Below, piece after piece: positions 8,176-30,989 of a stretch of DNA of 42,236 nucleotides (positions are counted from its first letter, which is position 1; every line of letters starts with the position of its first letter). The notes beneath the pieces are model-generated. The model had not been told where the DNA came from. It saw only the letters and a program-made list of their open reading frames with translations, and searched no databases. The translations under genes were made by a program, and so were the position numbers. This stretch comes from a virus. The stretch covers positions 1-42,236 of the IMG/VR virus record IMGVR_UViG_3300014201_000005; one strand, 5' to 3'.

Positions 8176-8383
8176 TAATTTCACCCCTATAAGACGAACT
8201 AAATTAAACGATGCTTTAGTGCATAACCTCGAACAATTAATCCGCGAAGGTGTTAAACGAATTGGATTAAAACCATCACAATTTCAATTACTGCATGATT
8301 CGATATGTGATGCGTTAAAAGTACATCACAAAACAGAAATTCCTTTCGAGGGCGCAATTATTTATAAACTGGAGCCAAGATAA
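8168..8383 (+). CDS. Hypothetical protein (71 aa, GTG start)
   Basis: ORF overlapping both neighbouring genes. Confidence 0.45.
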   Translation: MSDNFTPIRRTKLNDALVHNLEQLIREGVKRIGLKPSQFQLLHDSICDALKVHHKTEIPFEGAIIYKLEPR

Positions 8384-9222
8384 TGCCGATATATATTAAT
8401 AAAACATTGATACCCGAGATTAGATTTCCTGGTGGAGAATGTCATATAGCGCTTGACAATATTCTTCAATATGAACTTGATGGCTATACAAAAGTTTATG
8501 GAAAGTGCACGTGTAAAGCATTTCTTTACAATTCCGATGACATTATGCGCTTGTTGTTAACTATCGATGCTATTCGCCGTATAAGCCCAAAAATTCGTAT
8601 AAAACTTGAAATTCCTTATTTTCCATACGCAAGACAAGATCGGGTTTGTAATTATGGGGAAGCCTTAAGTATTAGGGTCATGGCTGATTTAATTAATGGT
8701 TTGAATTGTGAGAGTGTCCTAATTCATGATCCACATTCAGACGTGGTGGGTGCATTGGTGAATAACTGCCGTATCGAGCCTATTCATAATATTATTAGAT
8801 TCACTTCATTAGGTAAGTTTATCAAAGATCGTAATTATGATTTAGTTTCACCAGATGCAGGGGCAGAAAAGAAAGTACGCACAACAGCTTCAATTCTTGG
8901 TAGAGGCGCATATTATGCATATAAATCACGCAATACACTTACTGGCGAAATAACTTCAGTTCGATTCGACGATGATGTCTTAGGCAAGAACTTATTAATC
9001 GTTGATGATATCTGCGATGGTGGCAGAACATTTATTCAATTGGCCGATAGATTAATGCATAACGGTGCAGTAAATGTTTGCCTATATATTACACACGGTA
9101 TTTTCTCAAAAGGGTTAGCTATATTACGCCCACATTTAAGTCATATTTATTGCTATCATACATTTTTGCCTTATTGCGATTTTGATCGAGATTTTCTAAC
9201 CATATTAAGCAAGGAAAATTAA
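8383..9222 (+). CDS. Ribose-phosphate pyrophosphokinase-like enzyme (Prs family); candidate ADPR-pyrophosphate synthetase (Adps) of NARP1
   Basis: Prs motifs PYFPYARQDR and LLIVDDICDGGRT. At 279 aa it is shorter than housekeeping Prs. It abuts the NAMPT-like gene. Confidence 0.75.
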   Translation: MPIYINKTLIPEIRFPGGECHIALDNILQYELDGYTKVYGKCTCKAFLYNSDDIMRLLLTIDAIRRISPKIRIKLEIPYFPYARQDRVCNYGEALSIRVMADLINGLNCESVLIHDPHSDVVGALVNNCRIEPIHNIIRFTSLGKFIKDRNYDLVSPDAGAEKKVRTTASILGRGAYYAYKSRNTLTGEITSVRFDDDVLGKNLLIVDDICDGGRTFIQLADRLMHNGAVNVCLYITHGIFSKGLAILRPHLSHIYCYHTFLPYCDFDRDFLTILSKEN

Positions 9223-10707
9223 ATGTATATTAATCCATTAACCGCAATTGATTTCTACAAAACCGATCATCGTAGACAATATCCAGAAGGTACAACTGAG
9301 GTTTATTCAAATTTTACAGCGCGTAGCAGCAGAATGGGAGGAGTTAAGGAAGTAGTATTTTTTGGATTGCAATATTTTATTAGTGATTTTTTAATTAATA
9401 CTTGGCGTGAATCATTTTTTGAGATCCGCAAACGATATGTATTAGAAGATTATAAACGTCGTATGGACAATGCTTTAGGTAAAGACAGTATTAATATCGA
9501 TCATATCGCAGCACTGCATGATTTAGGTTATTTACCTTTAAGAATTAAAGCTCTACCAGAAGGTACGCTCGTACCAATTGGCGTACCAATGTTAACAGTC
9601 GTTAATACCCATCCAGATTTTTTCTGGTTAACTAATTATATCGAAACAATTATGTCGTGTTATCTGTGGAAGCCCATAACCTCCGCAACGATTGCTTTTG
9701 AATATAAAAAACTATTAACTAATTACGCGAAGACAACTTGTATAGATAAAGATTTTATTAAATATCAAGCGCACGATTTCTCTTTTCGCGGTATGTCATC
9801 ACCACAAGATGCAGCAATTTCCGGTGCGGGTCATTTATTATCGTTTGTAGGCACTGACACAGTGTTAGCAATTGATTTACTCGAAGATTATTATTTTGCA
9901 AATGCTGAGAAAGAATTAATCGGTTGCTCAGTACCCGCAACTGAGCACTCATGTATGTCAATGGGAACAGAGAATAATGAGCTATATACATTTAGGCGAT
10001 TAATCACTGAACTATACCCGACAGGGATTATATCTATCGTATCTGACACTTGGGATTTCTGGCATGTCATTAACATGTATTTGCCCATGCTTAGACCCGA
10101 TATCATGGCTCGCAATGGCAAAGTCGTAATTCGCCCAGATAGCGGCGCTCCGGTAAAGATTATTTGCGGGGATTTACTTGCGCCAAAAGATTCATCCCAA
10201 TACAAGGGCGCTGTCGAATGTCTCTGGGATATCTTCGGGGGCACAATAAATTCAAGGGGCTTTAAAGAACTAGATCCACATATCGGCCTAATCTACGGTG
10301 ACTCAATTACTCTCAATCGCGCCAGTATGATTTTAGAGCAATTAGAGGCTAAAGGCTTTGCCTCTAACAACATTGTCTTTGGTGTTGGCTCATATACCTA
10401 CGAATACGTCACTAGAGACACGTTCGGCTTTGCTATGAAGGCAACTAGTGGGGTCGTAAATGGCGAGCGTAGGGATATCTTTAAATCCCCTAAAACAGAT
10501 GACGGCGAGAAAACATCTGCTAAAGGATTGTTGCGCGTTAAGCGTATTGAGAATAAATTACTTCTCGAACAACAAACCGATGAAGTTTCGGAAGCTGGCG
10601 GAGAATTGCGCACCGTTTTTATGGACGGTCAATTGGTTAGAAAAACTAACCTGCAAGAAATTCGCGAACGTCTTGATAATGAATTACGAGGTAAATGTTA
10701 TGGCTGA
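9223..10707 (+). CDS. Nicotinamide phosphoribosyltransferase-like enzyme (NadV/NAMPT family); candidate Namat of NARP1
   Basis: 494 aa with NAMPT-type motifs (FRGMSS, GVGSYTYEYVTRDTFGFAMKAT). It starts 1 nt after the Prs-like stop. Confidence 0.8.
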   Translation: MYINPLTAIDFYKTDHRRQYPEGTTEVYSNFTARSSRMGGVKEVVFFGLQYFISDFLINTWRESFFEIRKRYVLEDYKRRMDNALGKDSINIDHIAALHDLGYLPLRIKALPEGTLVPIGVPMLTVVNTHPDFFWLTNYIETIMSCYLWKPITSATIAFEYKKLLTNYAKTTCIDKDFIKYQAHDFSFRGMSSPQDAAISGAGHLLSFVGTDTVLAIDLLEDYYFANAEKELIGCSVPATEHSCMSMGTENNELYTFRRLITELYPTGIISIVSDTWDFWHVINMYLPMLRPDIMARNGKVVIRPDSGAPVKIICGDLLAPKDSSQYKGAVECLWDIFGGTINSRGFKELDPHIGLIYGDSITLNRASMILEQLEAKGFASNNIVFGVGSYTYEYVTRDTFGFAMKATSGVVNGERRDIFKSPKTDDGEKTSAKGLLRVKRIENKLLLEQQTDEVSEAGGELRTVFMDGQLVRKTNLQEIRERLDNELRGKCYG

Positions 10708-12340: not shown

Positions 12341-12565
12341 TTAATCTCCAAAAAAAGTTTCTGCGAATTGAGTTTGTATTTCTTCTAATATCTCATGTTG
12401 TATCTCGGATAATTCTTTATGCTTCCAATTGCGCCGTAAAAACTCCGAAAAATGCTCAATAGCAATGTGCATTTTCTCGGCTTTACAATGAATCTCAAAT
12501 TTGTCCTTATCTTCCGGCTCGTTTAAATCAAATGATAATGTTGCGTTCATTCCACTAACTCCCAA
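12341..12565 (-). CDS. Hypothetical acidic protein (74 aa)
   Basis: ORF in the leftward accessory operon. Confidence 0.5.
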   Translation of the reverse strand: MGVSGMNATLSFDLNEPEDKDKFEIHCKAEKMHIAIEHFSEFLRRNWKHKELSEIQHEILEEIQTQFAETFFGD

Positions 12566-12753
12566 TCATCATCGTCGAATGATGCGAATTCTATTTTAAC
12601 GGGGTTAAAATGCTGATTAACTAAACACTTTCTTTTTTTGTCATTGCTATAAATTAACTCATATATTGTGTATCGAAAGTAAACAGCTGGATTCTGTATT
12701 CGAGCTATTCGCTTACCATCTTTTAATGCTAGTAATGCCTCTATAATATTCAT
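12547..12753 (-). CDS. DUF2829/Tad2-like small protein, paralogue 1
   Basis: N-terminal IIEALLALKDGKRIAR and C-terminal DDDDWELVE match the DUF2829 end motifs as I recall them. At 68 aa it is shorter than typical members. Confidence 0.45.
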   Translation of the reverse strand: MNIIEALLALKDGKRIARIQNPAVYFRYTIYELIYSNDKKRKCLVNQHFNPVKIEFASFDDDDWELVE

Positions 12754-12932: not shown

Positions 12933-13189
12933 TATGGTATTTCCCTCAATATATTCTGCGGCAGTTTGTTCTCAATCATCTCAATATCATCTTCGCTCAA
13001 TAATCTATTTCTAAAAGATTTTGGTGGTAATTCATCAACTGCAACTTCTAGGCTGCATGTATTTCCTACACGCTCTGTACTTAATTTTAAGGCTTTATCC
13101 AATGCTTGCTCATAATCATTAGCCTCTACTAGACAACACCCTAACCATTTATGTTGTGCCGTACCAAGATAAAAAAACCACCAGCTCAT
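12932..13189 (-). CDS. Hypothetical protein (85 aa)
   Basis: ORF with a 1-nt overlap to the downstream gene. Confidence 0.5.
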   Translation of the reverse strand: MSWWFFYLGTAQHKWLGCCLVEANDYEQALDKALKLSTERVGNTCSLEVAVDELPPKSFRNRLLSEDDIEMIENKLPQNILREIP

Positions 13190-13226
13190 TATTTAGCCTC
13201 CTTTAAATCAAATAAGAATAGTACGT

Positions 13227-13289
13227 TCATTCCACTAGCTCCCAGTCATCGGCATATAAATCTTCATATGATAAATACCCTACTTCGCC
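13227..13289 (-). pseudogene. Remnant of a third DUF2829-like gene (C-terminal 20 codons, no start)
   Basis: It reads GEVGYLSYEDLYADDWELVE*. The 26 nt at 13225-13250 match 12545-12570 with 2 mismatches. Confidence 0.4.
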
Positions 13290-13729
13290 TCATTCAGATA
13301 CATTATCCATCGTACACCCATATTCGGTATTTTCTCCTGACGCAATTTCAAACATATACAATGGGGTGGTGCAGGTAAATCAAAATAATCAAAAAACCCT
13401 GTCATCTGAAATATCCCATTATTTGCCGAATATTTTGAAATTTTAACCGAATAAGTAATATACTCTTCTAAGAACTCAAAAATAATCGCATTATTTTTTT
13501 TGGAGTAGTGTGGCAATACATAATTGTAAGGATGCCCCAGATCTTTATTTAACAGTTCAGTAATTCCCTTATTCATCGCAAATACTATTCCTTTACTGTT
13601 TTTCACACGATACACCGTCATCATAGGTGCTTTGTGTCGCTTATTTAACGCCATGCTCACTTTTAGATCTGACCAGTCACTCGTTTCTACATCATCATAA
13701 ACTCGTGCTCGTACTGTGCTGCCTTTCAT
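13280..13729 (-). CDS. Hypothetical protein (149 aa) directly downstream of Ro60
   Basis: AAGGAG lies 7 nt before the MKGSTVRARV start. It overlaps the Ro60 3' end by 35 nt. Confidence 0.55.
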   Translation of the reverse strand: MKGSTVRARVYDDVETSDWSDLKVSMALNKRHKAPMMTVYRVKNSKGIVFAMNKGITELLNKDLGHPYNYVLPHYSKKNNAIIFEFLEEYITYSVKISKYSANNGIFQMTGFFDYFDLPAPPHCICLKLRQEKIPNMGVRWIMYLNEAK

Positions 13730-15182
13730 TTTTAATCTCCTTCTGCTCATTAATTAACCAATCAACAACTGAACTAGAAAACCCGTCAATATGGGTAAAC
13801 TGTCCATAACCAACACCATTACGCGCACTAGCCACGTTAATGATATATCCTTTCGTTCCAGGCAATACCGATCCAATACCATCGGATGATTGCTCGTCAG
13901 TAATTACAATTAATGTGTCGTACATACCCGCACCAGCGCCAATAACTATTTTATTTAAGTGAGCGATAGCTTTAGCTAATTCAGTGCTGGCATGCCTCTG
14001 ACTATTTACAATAGCATCACGCAAAGCAAAACCTTTGCGTGGTGGAACGGCAACAAACCCCGACGAAAATGTCCAGGTAAATGGAACCTCAATAGTTAAT
14101 TCACGGATCAATATAGCAACCGCACATGCAGCGTCTAATCGTGTCATATCTGATTTACTAGATAGTCTCTCATCCATAGAACCAGAGACATCGATTAATA
14201 ATGCTATTTTTCCTTGCAACTTTGGCATTTTCTCAACACATCGTGCCATCATCGTCTCAAGCATCGGTTCACATTGCGGAACTGCCTTTGCCGCTGCAAT
14301 AAATTGATATGGCAACATCCTGTCGACTTTGCAAATGGTGGAATAAGACCTAATCTCAGAAATAGAGACTCTAGCTTCTACCATGTTTCTTAAATTACGC
14401 AAAAAGGCGATTGTTCCTAGCTTATTTTCTAACATTAAGCTCGTGAATACTTCGTGCTTATCTTTACCTGCCGACAAAGCAACTTCCCATGTGTCAGGAG
14501 TGGTTAGCGTGCGATCAACTATTTTTTTGTAAAGTAATTCATTAGGCGTGAAAACTTGCGTAGCATCTTGCTCTAAATTAATTAATTTTAACAAACGTCT
14601 CTCTGCTTTAGTAAAGATAGGCGCATCTTTGCCCTTATCTTTTGGCTTTGAATGCGATAAAAATAATGCATCACGTAATTTAACTTGATTATCTCTGTCG
14701 TATTTAGCAAATTGATACTCATTAAACTTACGAAACGCAAATGCTAAGCCTTTTTTAACTTGGTGCGATAATGTGCGCTTTTTAGTTTTTCCAGACATTT
14801 TATTTTCGATATTTGTAGACCAATACAACGCCAAAAAATCCGTAATCTGATCAGGGCGCGTAATTATCCTAGACAATGTCTTAGCTACAAATTTTTTATG
14901 GCTAGCATATCGCGCCATTTCACGCACAATTAATAATGGTGCATGCCTCAAATTCGCACGTTCACTGGCATCTATGGCAAGTTGCACACACTGGGCAGGC
15001 TCAACCAAGGGTACAAGCTTTGCGATGCGTGCGCCTATCTCCTCGCCGTCCTCGTAGAACTCTTTCTCAAACAACATGCAGCTCATTACTGATCTGCGCA
15101 ATTGTAAATATGGGGATATGGTGCAAGCGTTGCCACCTTCGTGGGTTTTTAAGCCGCCAGAGGCTTGATTTAATCGTGTCAT
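13695..15182 (-). CDS. rsr: Ro60/Rsr orthologue (TROVE domain plus vWA domain)
   Basis: The N-terminal region is typical of bacterial TROVE proteins (HEGGNA...FEKEFYEDGEE). The C-terminal vWA has the MIDAS motif LLIDVSGSMDE. Y-RNA-like elements lie immediately upstream. Confidence 0.8.
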   Translation of the reverse strand: MTRLNQASGGLKTHEGGNACTISPYLQLRRSVMSCMLFEKEFYEDGEEIGARIAKLVPLVEPAQCVQLAIDASERANLRHAPLLIVREMARYASHKKFVAKTLSRIITRPDQITDFLALYWSTNIENKMSGKTKKRTLSHQVKKGLAFAFRKFNEYQFAKYDRDNQVKLRDALFLSHSKPKDKGKDAPIFTKAERRLLKLINLEQDATQVFTPNELLYKKIVDRTLTTPDTWEVALSAGKDKHEVFTSLMLENKLGTIAFLRNLRNMVEARVSISEIRSYSTICKVDRMLPYQFIAAAKAVPQCEPMLETMMARCVEKMPKLQGKIALLIDVSGSMDERLSSKSDMTRLDAACAVAILIRELTIEVPFTWTFSSGFVAVPPRKGFALRDAIVNSQRHASTELAKAIAHLNKIVIGAGAGMYDTLIVITDEQSSDGIGSVLPGTKGYIINVASARNGVGYGQFTHIDGFSSSVVDWLINEQKEIKNERQHSTSTSL

Positions 15183-15199
15183 GATATTTCCTTACTGTA

Positions 15200-15279
15200 C
15201 TGGAACAAACGAGCTGGGTACGAAGGGGACATCGTCCCCACCAAATTTAAAGTTTGAAGTAACCCACCTCTACGCCAAG
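15200..15279 (-). ncRNA. Y-RNA-like module 3 (about 80 nt)
   Basis: The closing stem is UUGG/CCAG, then the internal loop CGUA vs GUUUGUU, then helix GAGGUGGGU/ACCCAGCUC with one mismatch. The inner hairpin is GGGGAC-GAU-GUCCCC. It ends 17 nt before the rsr ATG. Confidence 0.55.
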
Positions 15280-15293
15280 TTATAAAACAATCG

Positions 15294-15347
15294 CTGGAAC
15301 TAACAATCAGGGTGTTTTCTAGAGAAGTAACCCCAATATTCGCCAAG
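15294..15347 (-). ncRNA. Y-RNA-like module 2 (about 54 nt)
   Basis: It shares the 5' arm CUUGGCGAAUAUUGGGGUUACUUC and the 3' arm UGAUUGUUAGUUCCAG. Its inner helix is short (GGGGU/ACCCU). Confidence 0.45.
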
Positions 15348-15361
15348 CTATAAAACTATTG

Positions 15362-15484
15362 CTGGAACAAACGAGGAAAGTGTTTAGCGCTCTACCCGCT
15401 GAGCTACGGCGTAATTTCTACACCGGACGGACTCGAACCGCCGACCTCTTCATTACAAGTGAAGTAACTTTCCTCTACGCCAGA
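15362..15484 (-). ncRNA. Y-RNA-like module 1 with a tRNA-like domain (YrlA-type)
   Basis: The closing stem is CUGG/CCAG plus a perfect 9-bp helix GAGGAAAGU/ACUUUCCUC. It encloses a T arm (GGCGG-UUCGAGU-CCGUC), a capped acceptor hairpin (CGGUGUA-GAAAU-UACGCCG), a D arm (GCUC-AGCGGGUA-GAGC) and an anticodon-like hairpin (CUUCA-CUUGUAA-UGAAG). Confidence 0.7.
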
Positions 15485-15491
15485 CTATTTT

Positions 15492-15641
15492 CTATTCAAA
15501 AAACTTGTGAATCTTAAACTCTGTTAATCCACCAACAATAAAACCAATTGCAAAACCAATTCCTAAACTACCAAAACCTATCTCCATTAAAAATGATAAA
15601 TGCGTAACAATCGTATTAGGTGCTAATGTTGCAATTCCCAT
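15492..15641 (-). CDS. Possible small membrane protein (49 aa)
   Basis: Translated by hand. TAATG junction with the upstream gene. Gly/Ile/Phe-rich hydrophobic core. Confidence 0.35.
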   Translation of the reverse strand: MGIATLAPNTIVTHLSFLMEIGFGSLGIGFAIGFIVGGLTEFKIHKFFE

Positions 15642-15835
15642 TATTTACCATCCACTGTAATAGCGGCTGTATGCCCAAACGGTACAATTGTTAATAATTC
15701 GCCAGTATTGTTGCTTATTGTTAAGGGGGGTACGTTCTCCAATGCTGAGACTCTTTTTTCAATATTATTAATTTGGTGTATCAGTATATCGAGCGCATCT
15801 TCTAGCGGTGCCAAGACATATTTGAAGTCCGTCAT
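15641..15835 (-). CDS. Hypothetical protein (64 aa)
   Basis: AAGGAG lies upstream of the ATG. Confidence 0.55.
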   Translation of the reverse strand: MTDFKYVLAPLEDALDILIHQINNIEKRVSALENVPPLTISNNTGELLTIVPFGHTAAITVDGK

Positions 15836-15846
15836 TTAATTACTCC

Positions 15847-15963
15847 TTAACTGCGATAATAAGCAAAAGCTTCGTCAAATGTCTTAAATTGCGCAAGCAC
15901 TAACTCAACACACGTGCTTCGCACTTCCCATAAATGCGTCATACTATTATATTTTATCGTCAT
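15847..15963 (-). CDS. Possible small protein (38 aa)
   Basis: ATGA overlap with the upstream gene. It fills an otherwise empty gap. Confidence 0.3.
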   Translation of the reverse strand: MTIKYNSMTHLWEVRSTCVELVLAQFKTFDEAFAYYRS

Positions 15964-16169
15964 AATTGAACCTCGACGTCGTCAATGTATCCCAGATATA
16001 CCCATCTATAACGTTCAGCAATGGCGTTATATGATTTTTCTTCGTCTCTTATTCGAATAAATATTTTATCTTCTCTAATTCTATAGTTTCTTGCGCCATA
16101 TCTTCCACGCAATGAAAGTCTCAAGGGGCTATTTCTACTATAAGATGATAATTTACATAGGGTGGTCAT
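15960..16169 (-). CDS. Hypothetical basic protein (69 aa), first gene of the leftward accessory operon
   Basis: GGAGA lies 6 nt before the MTTLCK start. The track start at 16208 has no SD and abuts the leader U-run. Confidence 0.5.
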   Translation of the reverse strand: MTTLCKLSSYSRNSPLRLSLRGRYGARNYRIREDKIFIRIRDEEKSYNAIAERYRWVYLGYIDDVEVQL

Positions 16170-16210
16170 AATATTTCTCCAAGTGATTAAAAGTTTCCCA
16201 TATTTCATTT

Positions 16211-16257
16211 TAAAAAATGACTTTCCTCAATCCCTTCCCAGAAACTGAGGAAGTCAT
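16211..16257 (-). terminator. Leader intrinsic-terminator-like hairpin (candidate attenuator)
   Basis: Minus strand reads ATGACTTCCTCA, a 16-nt loop, TGAGGAAAGTCAT (12 bp, one bulge), then TTTTTT. It sits between the promoter at 16314-16342 and the first gene. Confidence 0.5.
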
Positions 16258-16313
16258 CAACACCGTTTTTATGAACTTATCTTGTTATTCATATTGCCGT
16301 TGTTATGGTCTAT

Positions 16314-16342
16314 AGTATCACCGATACGGTGGCATAAGTCAA
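16314..16342 (-). promoter_or_regulatory. Leftward accessory-operon promoter with an operator in the spacer
   Basis: Minus strand reads TTGACT (16342..16337), 17 nt, GATACT (16319..16314). CACCGATACGGTG at 16319..16331 is nearly identical to the operator at 5373..5385. Confidence 0.5.
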
Positions 16343-16360
16343 GCGGGATTTTCAATTATT

Positions 16361-16389
16361 TTGCAAATAGTTTTAAAAAGTTGTATAAA
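16361..16389 (+). promoter_or_regulatory. Rightward (late/structural operon) promoter
   Basis: TTGCAA, 17 nt, TATAAA. It lies 24 nt upstream of the first ATG. Confidence 0.5.
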
Positions 16390-16412
16390 TTCCACAATTT
16401 CAAGGGGTTAAC

Positions 16413-16643
16413 ATGCGTTGCAAATTATGTAATGGTGGCAAAAAAATTATTGGAATGGGTTGCATGGAGCAATCTTGTCCAGAATGTGACGGAAAAGGTG
16501 TTCAGCCAGAACAAAAAGAAGTAGCAAAAGAGGTTGAGATTGTTAAACCACCATATAAAAGGCCATCAAGAGCTAACAGTAACTTGCAATCACGCATCAA
16601 GAACGGTGAACCATTAAAAGTGGCATTACAAAATGCGAAATAA
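16413..16643 (+). CDS. Small protein with a DnaJ-type CxxCxGxG zinc finger
   Basis: CKLCNGGK and CPECDGKG motifs. AAGGGG SD. Confidence 0.55.
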   Translation: MRCKLCNGGKKIIGMGCMEQSCPECDGKGVQPEQKEVAKEVEIVKPPYKRPSRANSNLQSRIKNGEPLKVALQNAK

Positions 16644-22226: not shown

Positions 22227-22311
22227 TGGTGGGTAGGGTAGGATTCGAACCTACGAACCCAGAGGGAAAAGATTTACAGTCTCCGCGCTTTAACCGCTTG
22301 CATACCTACCC
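22227..22311 (-). tRNA. tRNA-Tyr (anticodon GTA), class II, CCA encoded
   Basis: Acceptor GGGTAGG/CCTACCC. 3-bp D stem. Anticodon arm GGAGA-CTGTAAA-TCTTT. 13-nt variable arm. T arm GTAGG-TTCGAAT-CCTAC. ACCA at the 3' end. Confidence 0.9.
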
Positions 22312-27974: not shown

Positions 27975-29330
27975 ATGAGTTATCAGTGGGAAGGCATAGA
28001 ACCTGAAACATTTGCACAAGCTAATCCCTTTTTAGCGGGGCTAAGCAATGCATGGCAGACTATGGGGCAATATGGCCAGATGCAACAACAACTTGCGCAA
28101 GGTCAATTGCAACAAGCACAAGCACAGTATGCCAATCCTATGGCGCAAGCGGCATTGGCTCAAGCCCAAGCGCAGCCAGCATTAACGCAAGCACAAGCCG
28201 CACAAGCGCTAGCGACAGCGGCTTATACGCAGCAAGGATTAACTCCAGAAGCAATAGCAGAAGCGGGCTATATTAATGGCGCGCAAACTCAAGAGGCTTT
28301 AGGTTCTGCGGCTCAGTCGCAAGGGGCTGCGCGGGTAAGTAATGTAGAGGCGGGTAATCCTGCGCTATTGGCTGGTGGGAATGCAGGGCAACTTTTTGGC
28401 TTTAATTCATTGGTCAATGGCGCTAATCAAAGCGCGCCGGGTGTACCAGCAGGTACGCCAAGTGGTCAAGCTTCTGGCTTTTCAACTTTGCCGCCTGCGT
28501 TAACGGGATGGCCGAATGTTCCGCCTCCTCCTACAGGCGGCAACCCCTTAGCGCCTGCTATCCAACAAAACAATCAATCCCCTATGGCAAGAGCTTACGC
28601 CATGATGCAGCAAATGAATGCTCAGCAAGCGGGATATGCGGCTAACGCTACGCAGAATATTACAGATTGGAATGCAGCGCAGAATGATGCAGCCGACAGA
28701 TCTAACAATGCCGCGCAAATGCAGCAGAATCTTAATAAATTCAGCGCAGAATATGATAAATCAAACTTAAAAGGTGCTTTTGAAGGTGAGATACCATCGA
28801 ATTGGTCAGGTAAAATTGCAAAGACTGTGCTTGATCAAAATGGTGATATTTCTCATGAGCAAAATGCGGATCAAGCATCAAGGAATTTAGCCGCTAATTT
28901 TGCTAATACGCTTCAGCCAAACACAACGGTAGAAGGTTTAAAAATATCTCCGCTGCTGAAACCAAGTCGTTTACTTGATCCTGACGCAAAAGCGGCGAGT
29001 GTGGATTCAATGCAAGCGTTTATTAACCGTCAACAGGAATATCAAACATTTCTTAATACAGCTCGGCAACGTGGGATAGAAAACCCGCAGGTAGCTAAAA
29101 CATTATGGAATCAATATCAAGCTGATAGGCCAGCGGTTGACCCATCTACAGGCTCAATAAATAAGCGTTACCAAAATACGTGGCCGGATTATTTAACCCC
29201 CCAAGCAATTATGCAGGCCACGGCTGGAATGCGTGCGACTGTGACACCTGTTGCGGCTGATTTAAAGAAGTATGGGGCGCTTCCTAATAGCAGCTCACAA
29301 AGTGTAGCTGATCCATTGGGGATAAGATAA
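27975..29330 (+). CDS. Gln/Ala-rich internal virion (ejection) protein, putative
   Basis: QAQAQ-rich N-terminus and position. Confidence 0.5.
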   Translation: MSYQWEGIEPETFAQANPFLAGLSNAWQTMGQYGQMQQQLAQGQLQQAQAQYANPMAQAALAQAQAQPALTQAQAAQALATAAYTQQGLTPEAIAEAGYINGAQTQEALGSAAQSQGAARVSNVEAGNPALLAGGNAGQLFGFNSLVNGANQSAPGVPAGTPSGQASGFSTLPPALTGWPNVPPPPTGGNPLAPAIQQNNQSPMARAYAMMQQMNAQQAGYAANATQNITDWNAAQNDAADRSNNAAQMQQNLNKFSAEYDKSNLKGAFEGEIPSNWSGKIAKTVLDQNGDISHEQNADQASRNLAANFANTLQPNTTVEGLKISPLLKPSRLLDPDAKAASVDSMQAFINRQQEYQTFLNTARQRGIENPQVAKTLWNQYQADRPAVDPSTGSINKRYQNTWPDYLTPQAIMQATAGMRATVTPVAADLKKYGALPNSSSQSVADPLGIR

Positions 29331-30989
29331 ATGAATATGGCCGATATTAGACAACAATACCCACAATATAGTGATCTTTCCGATCAACAATTGGCGGACG
29401 GCTTACACGCAAAATATTACTCAGATATGCCGCAACAGCAATTTTATAACAGCATTGGGTTTAATCCTGGCGCTCAACAACAGCCACAACAACCGTCGCA
29501 ATCGCCAAGCATATTGACGCAGGGTCAACAGATGATGGCACCTATTAATATTGGTGCTTCAAGATTCGGTGGAAACATTACGCAGGATATCGGTGCAGGG
29601 TTGGATCGAATTGGTGCAACAGCGCTTGGCAATAAACTTTATGGATGGGGATCGCAAGAAATCAATAATGCACCTTCTGTCTACGGTTCTCCATCACCTA
29701 CTGCTTTAGCGCCTAACTTAGTTGAGAATTTAGCGCAAGGCGCGCCTTATGCATTGCTACCCGGTGGTGCAATAAAGAATGTTTTAGGGGCAGCCTTATA
29801 CGGCGCAACTCAATCGCAACCAGGTCAAGCAGTTCAGGGAGCGGGCACAGATGCCGCAATCTCTGCTGGTCTCTCAGCTATTCCACTAGTAGGCGCAGGG
29901 TTAAAGTCTATTTATCAAGCAATTAGTCCTGAAACAAAAATGAATAATATTACTCAAGCGATTGGAAATCCTAACGGATTAGAAGCCAATGGCATATCGC
30001 TAGCAGCAGATGTGCGCGAGGCTTATGAGAAAGCTAAAAATGCAAGTGGTGAAGATTATCAACCTATTATGAATGCAGTAGGTAACAATAAAATTTATGA
30101 CGAAAACACTACGCAAAGTAAATATTTAGCTTTGCCTAAATCGGTAAATGATACTTTTGATACTGACACTAATGATCTGCATGAAAACTTTTTAAATAAT
30201 CCTACGTTTTCCAATGGTAAGGAATTATCAAGCCAATTTGGCGCGAATATTGGATCACTACAAAAAGCGCAACAACGTGGAATGCTTGATCAAGCAGGTA
30301 GTAATACACTATCAGCGCAAATAAAAGCTAAAAATGCGCTTGATGGGGATATGACATCATCTTTAAATAATTATGATTCAACAAATGGCACAAATTTTGC
30401 AAATCAGTATCAAACAGCAAAAGCTAATTACATTCAAAATGTAGTTCCTTATCGTATTGATCCGCCTTTGAATAAAATTGCAACCGGACAAATTAAAAAC
30501 CCTCAAAATGTCTCGAGTTATTTTGCTAATCCTGAAGATTCAACAAATAAAATAGCTAGTGATTTACCACAATCTTCATGGGATAAGATCATTTTTGATA
30601 AATTAGGTTCGCCTGCAGCCCAAAAAACGCCAGAAGCATTTAACAACGCGATAAATAATCTCGATAAACAAGGATTAACTTCATTTTTAACACCTTCTAC
30701 AAATAATATGATTGACAGTTTTAAAAATAGTTTAGCTGCAAAAGATGCAGTATCACACATGGCGGGCATGGCAGCCGGGGCGGTATTTGGATCGCATCTT
30801 GGTGAAGGTTCAGAATTACTAGGGGGATTAATTGGACAAAAAGCTTTGCCGTGGATATTAAAAAATTCAGGATTAGGAGCAGTCACATCATTAGTAGGCA
30901 AAGCAGCGGGTGCAACTGGAAGTGCTGCAAGTAAAGTTTATAAACCATCGTTATACGGCGCATTAGCAGCAAGAGGGCAGCAACAATGA
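29331..30989 (+). CDS. Internal virion (ejection) protein, putative
   Basis: 552 aa with C-terminal Gly/Ala hydrophobic segments. Position. Confidence 0.5.
   Translation: MNMADIRQQYPQYSDLSDQQLADGLHAKYYSDMPQQQFYNSIGFNPGAQQQPQQPSQSPSILTQGQQMMAPINIGASRFGGNITQDIGAGLDRIGATALGNKLYGWGSQEINNAPSVYGSPSPTALAPNLVENLAQGAPYALLPGGAIKNVLGAALYGATQSQPGQAVQGAGTDAAISAGLSAIPLVGAGLKSIYQAISPETKMNNITQAIGNPNGLEANGISLAADVREAYEKAKNASGEDYQPIMNAVGNNKIYDENTTQSKYLALPKSVNDTFDTDTNDLHENFLNNPTFSNGKELSSQFGANIGSLQKAQQRGMLDQAGSNTLSAQIKAKNALDGDMTSSLNNYDSTNGTNFANQYQTAKANYIQNVVPYRIDPPLNKIATGQIKNPQNVSSYFANPEDSTNKIASDLPQSSWDKIIFDKLGSPAAQKTPEAFNNAINNLDKQGLTSFLTPSTNNMIDSFKNSLAAKDAVSHMAGMAAGAVFGSHLGEGSELLGGLIGQKALPWILKNSGLGAVTSLVGKAAGATGSAASKVYKPSLYGALAARGQQQ

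What the first reader, a model, noticed from the sequence alone, without database searches (positions are those of the whole stretch)
13695..15484. Phage-encoded Ro60 (TROVE+vWA) gene fused transcriptionally to three tandem Y-RNA-like modules
Seen in sequence: ORF 13695..15182 (-) has a TROVE-like N-terminal region and a vWA domain with the MIDAS motif LLIDVSGSMDE, which is the Ro60/Rsr architecture. The 300 nt directly upstream on the same strand hold no credible ORF. They hold three consecutive units. Each is closed by the same pair of arms: a (C/U)UGG...CCAG clamp, an asymmetric internal loop (CGUA opposite GUUUGUU in modules 1 and 3), and an inner helix (9 bp in modules 1 and 3, only about 5 bp in module 2). 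Their interiors differ completely. That is the Y-RNA plan: a Ro-binding closing stem plus a variable effector module. The last unit ends 17 nt before the rsr start codon, so the RNAs and the mRNA are probably one precursor. Established knowledge: bacterial Rsr binds YrlA/YrlB-type Y RNAs, and the RNP tethers PNPase to degrade structured RNA. rsr/Y-RNA loci have been noted in a few phages, but no infection-stage function is known. Inference: the module sits in an attenuator-controlled accessory operon with Tad2-like genes, in a genome that also carries NAD+-reconstitution genes. This suggests a counter-defence or RNA-damage-management role, for example handling cleaved tRNA or rRNA, or acting as a decoy for tRNA-targeting immune nucleases.
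Basis: partly seen in the sequence, partly recalled or inferred. Interest (0 to 1): 0.85.

Follow-up and report, generated by a model that had tools for sequence, protein, structure and literature searches.

The report
Phage Ro60 gene with three Y-RNAs
An uncultivated phage carries a Ro60/Rsr RNA-binding protein gene preceded by three small Y-RNA-like genes, one of them a tRNA mimic; the call is correct, but this gene set is already known from many bacteria and phages, so it is a new example and not a new kind of system.

Summary
ORF 13695-15182(-) is a Ro60/Rsr orthologue. It passes Pfam TROVE, has an invariant MIDAS motif, belongs to PHROG 850, and its only PDB sequence match is the Thermus phage phiLo Ro60.

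The 300 nt upstream hold exactly three Y-RNA-like modules. Covariance models built only from other loci find all three (E 2e-26, 4e-12, 2e-10) and nothing else in the window.

Across 74 modules from Rsr-linked viral contigs, the closing stems covary strongly: 17 of 19 pairs show double changes, and 0 of 500 shuffles match.

- Module 1 is YrlA-type, a permuted tRNA mimic. ARAGORN's "tRNA-Thr" call here is this module.
- Modules 2 and 3 are shorter relatives.

The same arrays occur in bacterial rsr loci and in isolated phages (CcrColossus, Xanthomonas MET23-P3, crAss001, phiLo). YrlA RNAs next to rsr in 22 phages were published in 2014, and a phage Ro60/Yrl/PNPase complex in 2025. This is therefore a new member of a known kind.

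The counter-defence role is untested.

The parts
13695..15182 (-). rsr: Ro60/Rsr orthologue, 495 aa (TROVE ring region plus vWA with MIDAS DVSGS...T...D)
   Evidence: Pfam TROVE 7e-13. PHROG 850 'RNA-binding protein' 1e-38. PDB 9KOP/9L5Y (phiLo Ro60) E 1e-10 over residues 7-435. 40-56% identity to Rsr homologues in viral and bacterial contigs.
15183..15198 (-). Spacer with the Shine-Dalgarno AAGGA between module 3 and the rsr ATG
   Evidence: Read from the sequence. No terminator-like site on this strand.
15199..15280 (-). Module 3 (two-hairpin Yrl). Outer stem ACU[U]GG/CCAGU, GGCGUAG, inner helix GAGGUGGGU/ACCCAGCUC (one G-G mismatch), GUUACUUC (15256-15263), anticodon-arm-like hairpin UCAAA-CUUUAAA-UUUGG (15241-15257), hairpin GGGGAC-GAU-GUCCCC (15225-15239), 3' GUUUGUUCC.
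   Evidence: R1 41.7 bits, E 2e-10. R2 40.5 bits. Hairpin analysis.
15293..15348 (-). Module 2 (minimal Yrl, YrlB-like). Outer stem GCU[U]GG/CCAGC, GGCGAAU (canonical CGAA), inner helix 8 of 9 pairs, GUUACUUC (15324-15331), mini-hairpin UUC-UCUA-GAA, deviant 3' arm UUGUUAGUUCC.
   Evidence: R1 47.4 bits, E 3.8e-12. MFE.
15362..15484 (-). Module 1 (YrlA-type). CUGG/CCAG, GGCGUAG, 9-bp inner helix GAGGAAAGU/ACUUUCCUC, GUUACUUC (15461-15468), anticodon-arm-like hairpin CUUCA-CUUGUAA-UGAAG (15448-15464), AGGUC, T arm GGCGG-UUCGAGU-CCGUC (15426-15442), closed 7-bp acceptor stem (15407-15425), UA, D arm GCUC-AGCGGGUA-GAGC (15389-15404), 3' GUUUGUUCC (15364-15372).
   Evidence: Rfam YrlA 32.6 bits, E 2.6e-5, and Rfam tRNA 28.3 bits. 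MFE gives exactly this fold. R2 103.4 bits, E 2e-26. RNAalifold on 19 homologues recovers the stems. ARAGORN 'tRNA-Thr' at 15418-15487 is a partial false call.
15492..16208 (-). Three small upstream ORFs on the same strand (82, 64 and 49 aa). The stop codon of the last lies 8 nt before module 1. Probably part of the same transcription unit.
   Evidence: ORF list. No Pfam or PHROG hit. Operon membership is inferred from spacing.

Best explanation
The locus encodes a phage Ro60/Rsr protein and three Y-RNA-like non-coding RNAs, most likely on one leftward transcript.

Each RNA is closed by pairing of its 5' and 3' ends into the conserved Rsr-binding stem. That stem reads: outer stem, bulged U, GGCG(U/A)A on the 5' strand, and UGUUCC on the 3' strand.

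The RNAs are probably cut out of the precursor by host RNases and stabilised by binding the outer surface of the Rsr ring. Their apical parts then act as adaptors:
- an anticodon-arm-like hairpin alone (M2, degenerate)
- that hairpin plus a second hairpin (M3)
- a complete permuted tRNA-like domain (M1)

The adaptors tether Rsr to host factors, most plausibly PNPase or tRNA-binding proteins. In this way the phage re-programmes decay or handling of structured RNA during infection.

Shown here: the identity of the protein, the three modules, their family membership, and covariation of the stems.

Inferred from D. radiodurans, Salmonella, M. smegmatis and phage phiLo: co-transcription, processing, Rsr binding and PNPase tethering.
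For: Protein:
- TROVE hit
- phiLo Ro60 as the PDB match
- invariant MIDAS residues
- PHROG 850

RNAs:
- Rfam YrlA hit on M1
- The MFE fold gives a cloverleaf-like interior
- Independent models find M1, M2 and M3 and nothing else in the window
- 74 modules from Rsr-linked viral loci are 91.7% paired; 17 of 19 pairs have double changes; covariation is 0.715 against 0.205 shuffled; 0 of 500 shuffles match; sliding the 3' partners of the pairs by 1-3 columns collapses the signal
- The outer stem was not used for selection, yet it shows GC/CG/UA/AU mixes with no unpaired cells at two positions
- 76 of 121 5' arms find their own partner at 8 or more of 9 pairs, against about 11 when arms are swapped
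- 76 of 87 modules lie upstream of rsr on the same strand
- The same family occurs in 54 of 80 bacterial rsr loci and in CcrColossus, MET23-P3, crAss001 and phiLo

Literature:
- YrlA and YrlB lie upstream of rsr and come from one precursor in M. smegmatis; 22 phages carry YrlA (PMC4201824)
- phiLo Ro60 binds Yrl RNAs and host PNPase (PMC12135203)
Against: - There are no expression, processing or binding data for this phage.
- M1 is below the Rfam YrlA gathering score (32.6 against 69).
- The vWA Pfam models are below their cut-offs.
- MFE z-scores are not significant, and the whole 318-nt region gives z -0.15.
- The outer stems in this window are short (4-5 bp against 6-7 in most relatives).
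- M1 and M3 carry CGUA, not the CGAA shown to matter for phiLo Ro60 binding. An A-to-U change there cost about 4-fold in affinity (PMC12135203), although CGUA is the majority form in this clade.
- The host and its PNPase are unknown.
- In vitro the phiLo complex attenuated PNPase rather than enhanced it, so the direction of the effect is open.
Confidence: 0.82

Rival explanations
1. Anticodon-nuclease decoy or tRNA-damage management. The modules display tRNA-like anticodon arms, and M1 a whole tRNA body, to soak up or inhibit host tRNA-cleaving defence nucleases, or to direct Rsr/PNPase to cleaved tRNAs. This is compatible with the main explanation; it specifies the effector.
For: - 45 of 143 modules have a 7-nt loop on a stem built from the conserved CUUC, against 5.6 expected. 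Loop composition is C32 87%, U33 84%, NNN variable, R37 98%, A38 80%.
- M1's hairpin, AGGUC and T arm are collinear with tRNA positions 27-65. Both Rfam tRNA (28.3 bits) and ARAGORN respond to this.
- The same mis-call exists in GenBank for CcrColossus.
- In Salmonella, rsr-yrlBA sits in the RtcR operon, which is induced by cleaved tRNAs. The authors of that work suggest YrlA may competitively inhibit the anticodon nuclease (PMC7790460).
- The phage also carries its own tRNA-Tyr.
Against: - The same hairpin is found in chromosomal rsr loci of Acidobacteriota and Alphaproteobacteria, so it is not a phage-specific counter-defence device.
- The 'anticodon' triplets vary freely, and M3's UUA matches no sense codon.
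- By topology the hairpin sits where Chen et al. place a class-II-like variable arm (PMC4201824).
- No nuclease partner is known.
Confidence: 0.2
2. A cis-acting 5' UTR. The modules stay on the rsr mRNA and act as Rsr-binding operators that feed back on rsr translation or stability, and do not work as free RNAs.
For: - M3 ends 17 nt from the ATG, next to the Shine-Dalgarno sequence.
- There is no terminator-like site, and no promoter-like site in a workable position, between the modules and rsr.
- Most modules in relatives lie 20-80 nt upstream of rsr.
Against: - 10 of 87 modules lie downstream of rsr, and some lie 400-750 nt away.
- In phiLo and crAss001 the modules lie downstream.
- In studied bacteria the RNAs accumulate as discrete stable species bound by Rsr (PMC4201824).
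- The apical tRNA-like domain is conserved for no obvious cis purpose.
Confidence: 0.1
3. A tRNA-Thr gene or pseudogene plus unrelated intergenic repeats.
For: ARAGORN calls tRNA-Thr(UGU) at 15418-15487(-). The Rfam tRNA model gives 28.3 bits.
Against: - The score is below the tRNA gathering score of 29, and the match covers only model positions 6-65.
- The D arm lies 3' of the T arm, and the acceptor stem is closed by a loop, so there are no free acceptor ends.
- The family model fits the whole 130 nt at 103 bits.
Confidence: 0.02

Closest known systems
YrlA/YrlB with Rsr in bacteria and phages (Chen et al. 2013, 2014; Rfam RF02553)
   Same: - Rsr gene with one or more Y-RNA-like genes within a few hundred nt on the same strand.
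- A long 5'/3' stem carrying a GNCGAA-type motif.
- A tRNA-like domain ordered T arm, closed acceptor stem, D arm, with a further hairpin ('V') before the T arm.
- In M. smegmatis, two RNAs upstream of rsr cut from one precursor.
   Different: - M1 scores only 32.6 bits on RF02553 (gathering score 69).
- The motif is GGCGUAG in M1 and M3.
- The 3' strand (UGUUCC) is also conserved in this clade, whereas only the 5' strand is said to be conserved in Salmonella and M. smegmatis.
- There are three modules of three different sizes.
Thermus phage phiLo Ro60 with Yrl1/Yrl2 (NAR 2025, PDB 9KOP/9L5Y)
   Same: - A phage-encoded Ro60 with adjacent Y-RNA-like RNAs.
- It is the only solved structure that the window protein matches by sequence.
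- It forms a ternary complex with host PNPase.
   Different: - About 24% identity.
- The published Yrls were chosen upstream by the CGAA motif. The family model built here instead hits two elements downstream of the phiLo gene.
Caulobacter phage CcrColossus and 43-kb Xanthomonas phages (MET23-P3, Usme, Olaya and others)
   Same: Rsr homologues at 43-45% identity, each preceded by a 700-nt gap holding arrays of the same modules: 5 or more in MET23-P3 and about 8 in CcrColossus.
   Different: - The genomes are otherwise unrelated: no megablast match, and the best portal match in the phage collection is only 22-24% identical, to Vibrio-type phages.
- The arrays are larger.
- The RNAs are unannotated in GenBank, or mis-annotated as tRNA-Gln.
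Metazoan Y RNAs and nematode sbRNAs
   Same: The layout is shared: lower stem with a (C)CGA-type motif on the 5' strand and a UUG-containing 3' strand, an upper stem, then a GUUAUC-like motif at the 5' start of the loop. hY1 and hY4 5' ends read ...GUGAGUUAUCUC and ...GUGGGUUAUCAG (strings confirmed). The UUAUC motif is described in PMC4726728.
   Different: - No hit to Rfam Y_RNA even at E 10.
- Spacings differ by 1-3 nt.
- The effector domains differ.
- The literature regards the bacterial RNAs as not homologous to the vertebrate clades.

Membership tests
Ro60/Rsr (TROVE + vWA) | TROVE domain above the curated threshold | tested here: met
   PF05731: 48.9 bits against 23, E 7e-13.
Ro60/Rsr (TROVE + vWA) | C-terminal vWA domain recognised by a profile | tested here: inconclusive
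   VWA_2 scores 17.1 against 27, and vWA_Ro60 scores 14.7 against 27.7. Both cover residues 327-432.
Ro60/Rsr (TROVE + vWA) | MIDAS residues (DxSxS...T...D) | tested here: met
   D331, S333, S335, T400 and D429 are invariant in 23 homologues. The string was read.
Ro60/Rsr (TROVE + vWA) | Full-length similarity to a solved Ro60 | tested here: met
   9KOP/9L5Y (phiLo Ro60), E 1e-10, query residues 7-435.
Ro60/Rsr (TROVE + vWA) | Ring-shaped HEAT-repeat fold | not tested
YrlA (Rfam RF02553) | Score at or above the gathering threshold | tested here: not met
   32.6 bits against 69. E 2.6e-5 in a 501-nt search.
YrlA (Rfam RF02553) | tRNA-like domain ordered T arm, closed acceptor stem, D arm, inside a long terminal stem | tested here: met
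   MFE fold. RNAalifold on 19 homologues. Clade model gives 103.4 bits.
YrlA (Rfam RF02553) | Encoded within 4 kb of rsr on the same strand | tested here: met
   180 nt upstream on the same strand.
YrlA (Rfam RF02553) | GNCGAAN0-1G motif on the 5' strand | tested here: inconclusive
   M1 and M3 have GGCGUAG (one substitution). M2 has GGCGAAU. CGUAG is the majority form in this clade.
YrlA (Rfam RF02553) | Bound by Rsr; carries pseudouridine and dihydrouridine | not testable with these tools
   Needs RNA immunoprecipitation and modification mapping.
Rsr-linked Yrl module family defined here (models R1/R2) | Closing stem supported by covariation, and a significant match to a model built without the window | tested here: met
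Metazoan Y RNA (Rfam RF00019) | Match to the family model | tested here: not met
   No hit at E up to 10 in 15100-15600.
tRNA | Cloverleaf with paired free 5' and 3' acceptor ends, and a score above gathering | tested here: not met
   28.3 bits against 29, model positions 6-65 only. The acceptor stem is closed by a loop, and the D arm lies 3' of the T arm.
Tad2 (context claim) | PF11195 above threshold | tested here: not met
   One ORF only (12547-12753), 17.7 bits against 25, E 0.005.
NAD+ reconstitution pair (context claim) | Adjacent Prs-like and NAMPT-like genes | tested here: met
   8383-9222 hits Pribosyltran_N at 8.5e-12. 9223-10707 hits NAPRTase at 3e-42 plus NAMPT_N. Activity was not tested.

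The most novel reading that the evidence does not exclude
In this Rsr clade, both phage and bacterial, the Y-RNA-like modules are built around an anticodon stem-loop mimic. The invariant GUUACUUC supplies a UA hinge and the 5' strand of a 5-bp stem. That stem is capped by a 7-nt loop with the universal C32-U33-NNN-R37-A38 signature.

On this reading the YrlA-type members are complete tRNAs, circularly permuted at position 26/27, and do not lack the anticodon loop. The small members are a Ro stem plus an anticodon arm.

If so, the effector recruited to Rsr recognises anticodon arms. It could be an anticodon nuclease, a modification enzyme or a repair enzyme. In phages the array could then work as a panel of decoys or adaptors against tRNA-cleaving immunity.

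A side reading: GUUAC here and GUUAUC in vertebrate Y RNAs and nematode sbRNAs are the same ancestral element.
Probability: 0.25. Interest if true: 0.65.

Novelty: new member of a known kind. Interest (0 to 1): 0.32.

Why it matters
On its own the locus adds one more phage to a list that began in 2014, so its main practical value is better annotation. The three RNAs would be missed, or called a tRNA-Thr, by standard pipelines, as has happened in CcrColossus.

The comparative set gathered here is more useful than the single locus. It gives a sharp consensus for the Rsr-binding stem on both strands, and two working covariance models that find modules Rfam misses. It also shows that an anticodon-arm-like hairpin is a recurrent part of these RNAs.

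Together these make the long-open question of which effector bacterial and phage Y RNAs recruit more testable. They also give concrete mutants for testing whether phage Ro60 RNPs interfere with tRNA-directed immunity.

Tried and rejected
- Megablast of 13000-16500 against 50,697 phage records found no match. The portal protein is only 22-24% identical to any isolate, so neither the phage nor its host could be named.
- Rfam at gathering thresholds finds nothing in the region. Only the E-value mode shows YrlA.
- A tRNA-Thr gene was rejected on topology.
- The raw pattern GGCGTAG-N5-9-GTTACTTC in viral contigs returned at least 120 stretches. About 80 of the 138 pattern matches had neither an Rsr hit in the fetched DNA nor a 3' motif. 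I treat those as chance matches or fragments and did not use them.
- My module catalogue required 8 or more of 9 inner pairs, which biases the 'percent paired' figure for that helix. I controlled for this with the outer stem, which was not used for selection, and with arm swapping.
- The Sim and Wolin 2018 review and the supplement of the phiLo paper are not held. I therefore could not confirm the exact published Yrl1/Yrl2 sequences.
- 'Attenuator': one hairpin at 16252-16223(-), in a scan that found 3 sites against 5.1 expected. Not pursued.
Full report
**The observation**

The minus strand of 13500-15800 holds a 495-aa ORF at 13695-15182. Pfam places it in TROVE (48.9 bits against a cut-off of 23, E 7e-13). 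The two vWA models (VWA_2 and vWA_Ro60) match residues 327-432 but fall below their cut-offs.

The MIDAS string LLIDVSGSMDE is there. In an alignment with 22 homologues, D331, S333, S335, T400 and D429 are invariant. The protein belongs to PHROG 850, 'RNA-binding protein' (E 1e-38). Its only sequence matches among solved structures are 9KOP and 9L5Y (E 1e-10 over residues 7-435). These are the Ro60 of Thermus phage phiLo. The protein call is sound.

**The upstream RNA region**

Rfam at gathering thresholds sees only a tRNA-Tyr elsewhere in the window. With E-value reporting, the 500 nt around the region give two hits on the minus strand. YrlA (RF02553) matches 15371-15474 at 32.6 bits, E 2.6e-5, below its gathering score of 69. 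The tRNA model matches 15424-15479 at 28.3 bits, against a gathering score of 29.

ARAGORN calls a 'tRNA-Thr(UGU)' at 15418-15487. The minimum-free-energy fold of 15362-15484 explains both results. A terminal stem encloses four hairpins in this order:
- a 5-bp stem with the loop CUUGUAA
- after AGGUC, a T arm (GGCGG-UUCGAGU-CCGUC)
- a 7-bp acceptor-like stem closed by a loop
- after UA, a D arm (GCUC-AGCGGGUA-GAGC)

This is the YrlA plan, a permuted tRNA mimic, and not a tRNA gene. The free-energy z-scores of the three units are unremarkable (-1.5, -0.4, -1.9), so thermodynamics alone proves nothing.

**Comparative evidence**

A scan of viral contigs with the protein returned 11 loci with Rsr homologues at 27-50% identity. 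Their upstream regions show two to four tandem units of the same design. Every unit has GGCG(U/A)AG, six variable bases and GUUACUUC on the 5' side, and CGYYUGUUCC on the 3' side.

A pattern scan for the 5' half brought in at least 120 further stretches. Fifty of the 132 sources then held (131 loci plus the window) encode an Rsr homologue. The 3' motif accompanies the 5' motif in 41 of 54 cases in those loci, against 4 of 84 elsewhere.

In Rsr-linked loci I catalogued 87 modules in 42 loci. Of these, 76 lie upstream of rsr on the same strand. They fall in three size ranges: about 48-60 nt, 66-105 nt, and 105-125 nt.

I aligned the arms of 74 distinct modules, with the 5' arm and 3' arm joined by a dummy AAAA, and counted pairs:
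- 91.7% of cells are paired.
- 17 of 19 pairs show changes on both sides.
- The covariation score is 0.715, against 0.205 for shuffles. None of 500 shuffles reaches it.
- Sliding the 3' partners of the pairs by 1-3 columns drops pairing to 37-53%.

The inner helix had been used to select modules, so its pairing figure is biased. The outer stem was not used for selection, and it shows free exchange of GC, CG, UA and AU with no unpaired cells at two positions. As a further control, 76 of 121 5' arms find a partner with at least 8 of 9 pairs, against about 11 when arms are swapped among modules.

**Independent test of the three window units**

A covariance model built from 32 small modules of other loci finds M2 at 15289-15351 (47.4 bits, E 3.8e-12) and M3 at 15195-15283 (41.7 bits, E 2e-10). 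Nothing else in the window scores better than E about 1.

A model built from 18 YrlA-type modules of other loci finds M1 at 15358-15487 (103.4 bits, E 2e-26). The composite motif TTGGCGWA-N7-GTTACTTC occurs three times in the window, all here, against 0.04 expected.

**Corrections to the anatomy**

- The family consensus is: outer stem of 4-7 bp, a bulged U, GG paired to CC, a UU bulge on the 3' strand, C-G and G.U, an internal loop (UA opposite GYY), then a 9-bp inner helix whose last two pairs use the G and U of GUUACUUC.
- The window's outer stems are short (4-5 bp).
- M2 has 8 of 9 inner pairs in the family register, carries the canonical CGAA, and has a deviant 3' arm.
- The interiors are not unrelated. 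All three carry GUUACUUC.
- M1 and M3 both form an anticodon-arm-like hairpin, CUUCA-CUUGUAA-UGAAG and UCAAA-CUUUAAA-UUUGG.
- M3 adds a GC-rich hairpin. Other loci have this two-hairpin type as well.

**How general the family is**

A scan of one genome per bacterial and archaeal species found at least 573 stretches encoding relatives. The best 80, mostly from Acidobacteriota and Alphaproteobacteria, are 46-51% identical. Of these, 54 carry 1-4 modules of the same family on the rsr strand.

In the phage isolate collection, 88 records encode a homologue. They include crAss001, Rhizobium, Brevundimonas, Caulobacter, Xanthomonas, Gordonia, Streptomyces and Vibrio phages, and an archaeal virus.

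Xanthomonas phage MET23-P3 and Caulobacter phage CcrColossus each have a gap of about 700 nt upstream of rsr, filled with these modules. In CcrColossus, the GenBank 'tRNA-Gln' is the 5' part of one module. This is the same artefact as ARAGORN's tRNA-Thr here.

**What is already known**

- Chen et al. 2014 reported YrlA-like RNAs next to rsr in 254 bacteria and 22 phages, a GNCGAA motif, T, acceptor and D arms, and a fourth hairpin 'V' before the T arm. They also showed that M. smegmatis YrlA and YrlB lie upstream of rsr and come from one precursor (PMC4201824).
- The crystal structure paper notes a conserved UA that kinks the stem, and states that YrlA lacks the anticodon loop (bioRxiv 10.1101/312249).
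- In 2025 the phiLo Ro60 was shown to bind two Yrl RNAs and host PNPase, and to attenuate PNPase in vitro (PMC12135203).
- Hughes et al. 2020 suggested that the YrlA tRNA-like domain might competitively inhibit an anticodon nuclease (PMC7790460).

The window is therefore a new member of a known kind.

**Mechanism**

The most likely reading is that the leftward operon, 16208 down to about 11645 with tightly packed or overlapping ORFs, is transcribed through the module array into rsr. The stop codon of the 49-aa ORF lies 8 nt before M1, and M3 ends 17 nt before the ATG next to AAGGA. There is no terminator-like site on this strand in between.

Host RNases would release the three RNAs. Rsr would bind their closing stems. 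The apical domains would recruit host factors, with PNPase as the precedent. Everything after the sequence anatomy is inferred from other systems.

**Context claims**

- The window is a phage: P22-like portal and small terminase.
- It has an adjacent Prs-like and NAMPT-like gene pair.
- The 'Tad2-like genes' reduce to one ORF at 17.7 bits against a cut-off of 25.
- The 'attenuator' is one consensus hairpin, in a scan that found fewer sites than chance.

**What may be new**

Across 143 modules, 96 have a hairpin whose 5' strand includes the conserved C of CUUC. Of these, 45 have a 7-nt loop, against 5.6 expected from shuffles. The loop composition is C 39/45, U 38/45, three variable bases, purine 44/45, A 36/45. 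This is the anticodon-loop signature.

RNAalifold recovers this hairpin independently, with compensatory changes at two pairs. In YrlA-type members it is followed by AGGUC and the T arm, collinear with tRNA positions 27-65. By topology it sits where Chen et al. place a variable arm. Which helix stacks under the D stem cannot be decided here.

GUUAC also sits where vertebrate Y RNAs and nematode sbRNAs carry GUUAUC (PMC4726728; the hY1 and hY4 5' strings were confirmed). However, the Rfam Y_RNA model gives no hit. This remains a resemblance only.

**Verdict**

The context inferences are not established. Novelty is that of a new member of a known kind, with modest interest.

Noticed in passing
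window 15418-15487 (-); L213 631-698 (CcrColossus JX100810 109217-109284): tRNA finders mis-call the 5' part of YrlA-type modules as tRNA genes. ARAGORN calls tRNA-Thr(UGU) here, and GenBank annotates a 'tRNA-Gln' in CcrColossus. In both cases the anticodon-like hairpin, AGGUC and the T arm mimic tRNA positions 27-65.
   Followed up: yes
window 15448-15464 and 15241-15257 (-); 143 modules in L001-L211: Many modules, of all sizes, carry an anticodon-arm-like hairpin built on the conserved CUUC. 45 have 7-nt loops, against 5.6 expected, with the signature C-U-NNN-R-A and a variable triplet. The literature calls this hairpin a variable arm and states that YrlA lacks an anticodon loop.
   Followed up: partly
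window 15461-15468, 15324-15331, 15256-15263 (-): An invariant GUUACUUC sits at the top of the inner helix in all three modules and in nearly all relatives. It occupies the same position as GUUAUC in human Y1, Y4 and Y5 and the UUAUC motif of nematode sbRNAs. There is no Rfam Y_RNA hit, so this is a resemblance only.
   Followed up: partly
L214 2490-2554 and 2681-2759 (Thermus phage phiLo MH673673, about 29145-29414): The family model hits two module-like elements immediately downstream of the phiLo Ro60 gene (E 7e-8 and 0.03). They have GGGUACUUC, perfect 9-bp inner helices and UUUCC, and they overlap the annotated hypothetical CDS phiLo_25. The 2025 study chose its Yrl1/Yrl2 upstream by the CGAA motif. 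The model does not hit that upstream region.
   Followed up: partly
L215 2466-2548 and 2560-2636 (Bacteroides phage crAss001 MH675552): crAss001 has Yrl-type modules in the 900-nt unannotated gap downstream of its TROVE gene gp96 (E 5e-9 and 0.005). They are AT-rich variants with GUGUA and UUACUUC.
   Followed up: no
window 22227-22311 (-): A genuine phage tRNA-Tyr(GUA) gene with a long variable arm (Rfam 48.8 bits). It may be relevant if the host uses tRNA-Tyr-cleaving defence.
   Followed up: no
window 8383-10707 (+): Adjacent Prs-like (279 aa) and NAMPT-like (494 aa) genes. This composition matches published phage NAD+ reconstitution pairs. Function was not tested.
   Followed up: partly
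window 13695-13750 (-): The next gene (13280-13750, 156 aa, no family hit) starts behind a GGAG Shine-Dalgarno sequence, 56 nt inside the 3' end of rsr. The window Rsr is about 40-50 aa longer than most homologues (495 against about 445 aa). The extra residues were not mapped.
   Followed up: no
window 16223-16342 (-): A promoter-like site (TTGACT-17-GATACT) is followed by a 13-bp hairpin with a T-run, just upstream of the first ORF of the leftward operon. The scan found fewer such sites than chance, so it has no support as it stands.
   Followed up: no
L132-L211: The closest cellular Rsr homologues (46-51% identity) are mostly from Acidobacteriota (Terriglobales, 'Angelobacter') and Alphaproteobacteria genomes assembled from metagenomes, with 1-4 modules each. 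The clade is shared between phages and bacteria, which argues against a phage-specific function.
   Followed up: partly
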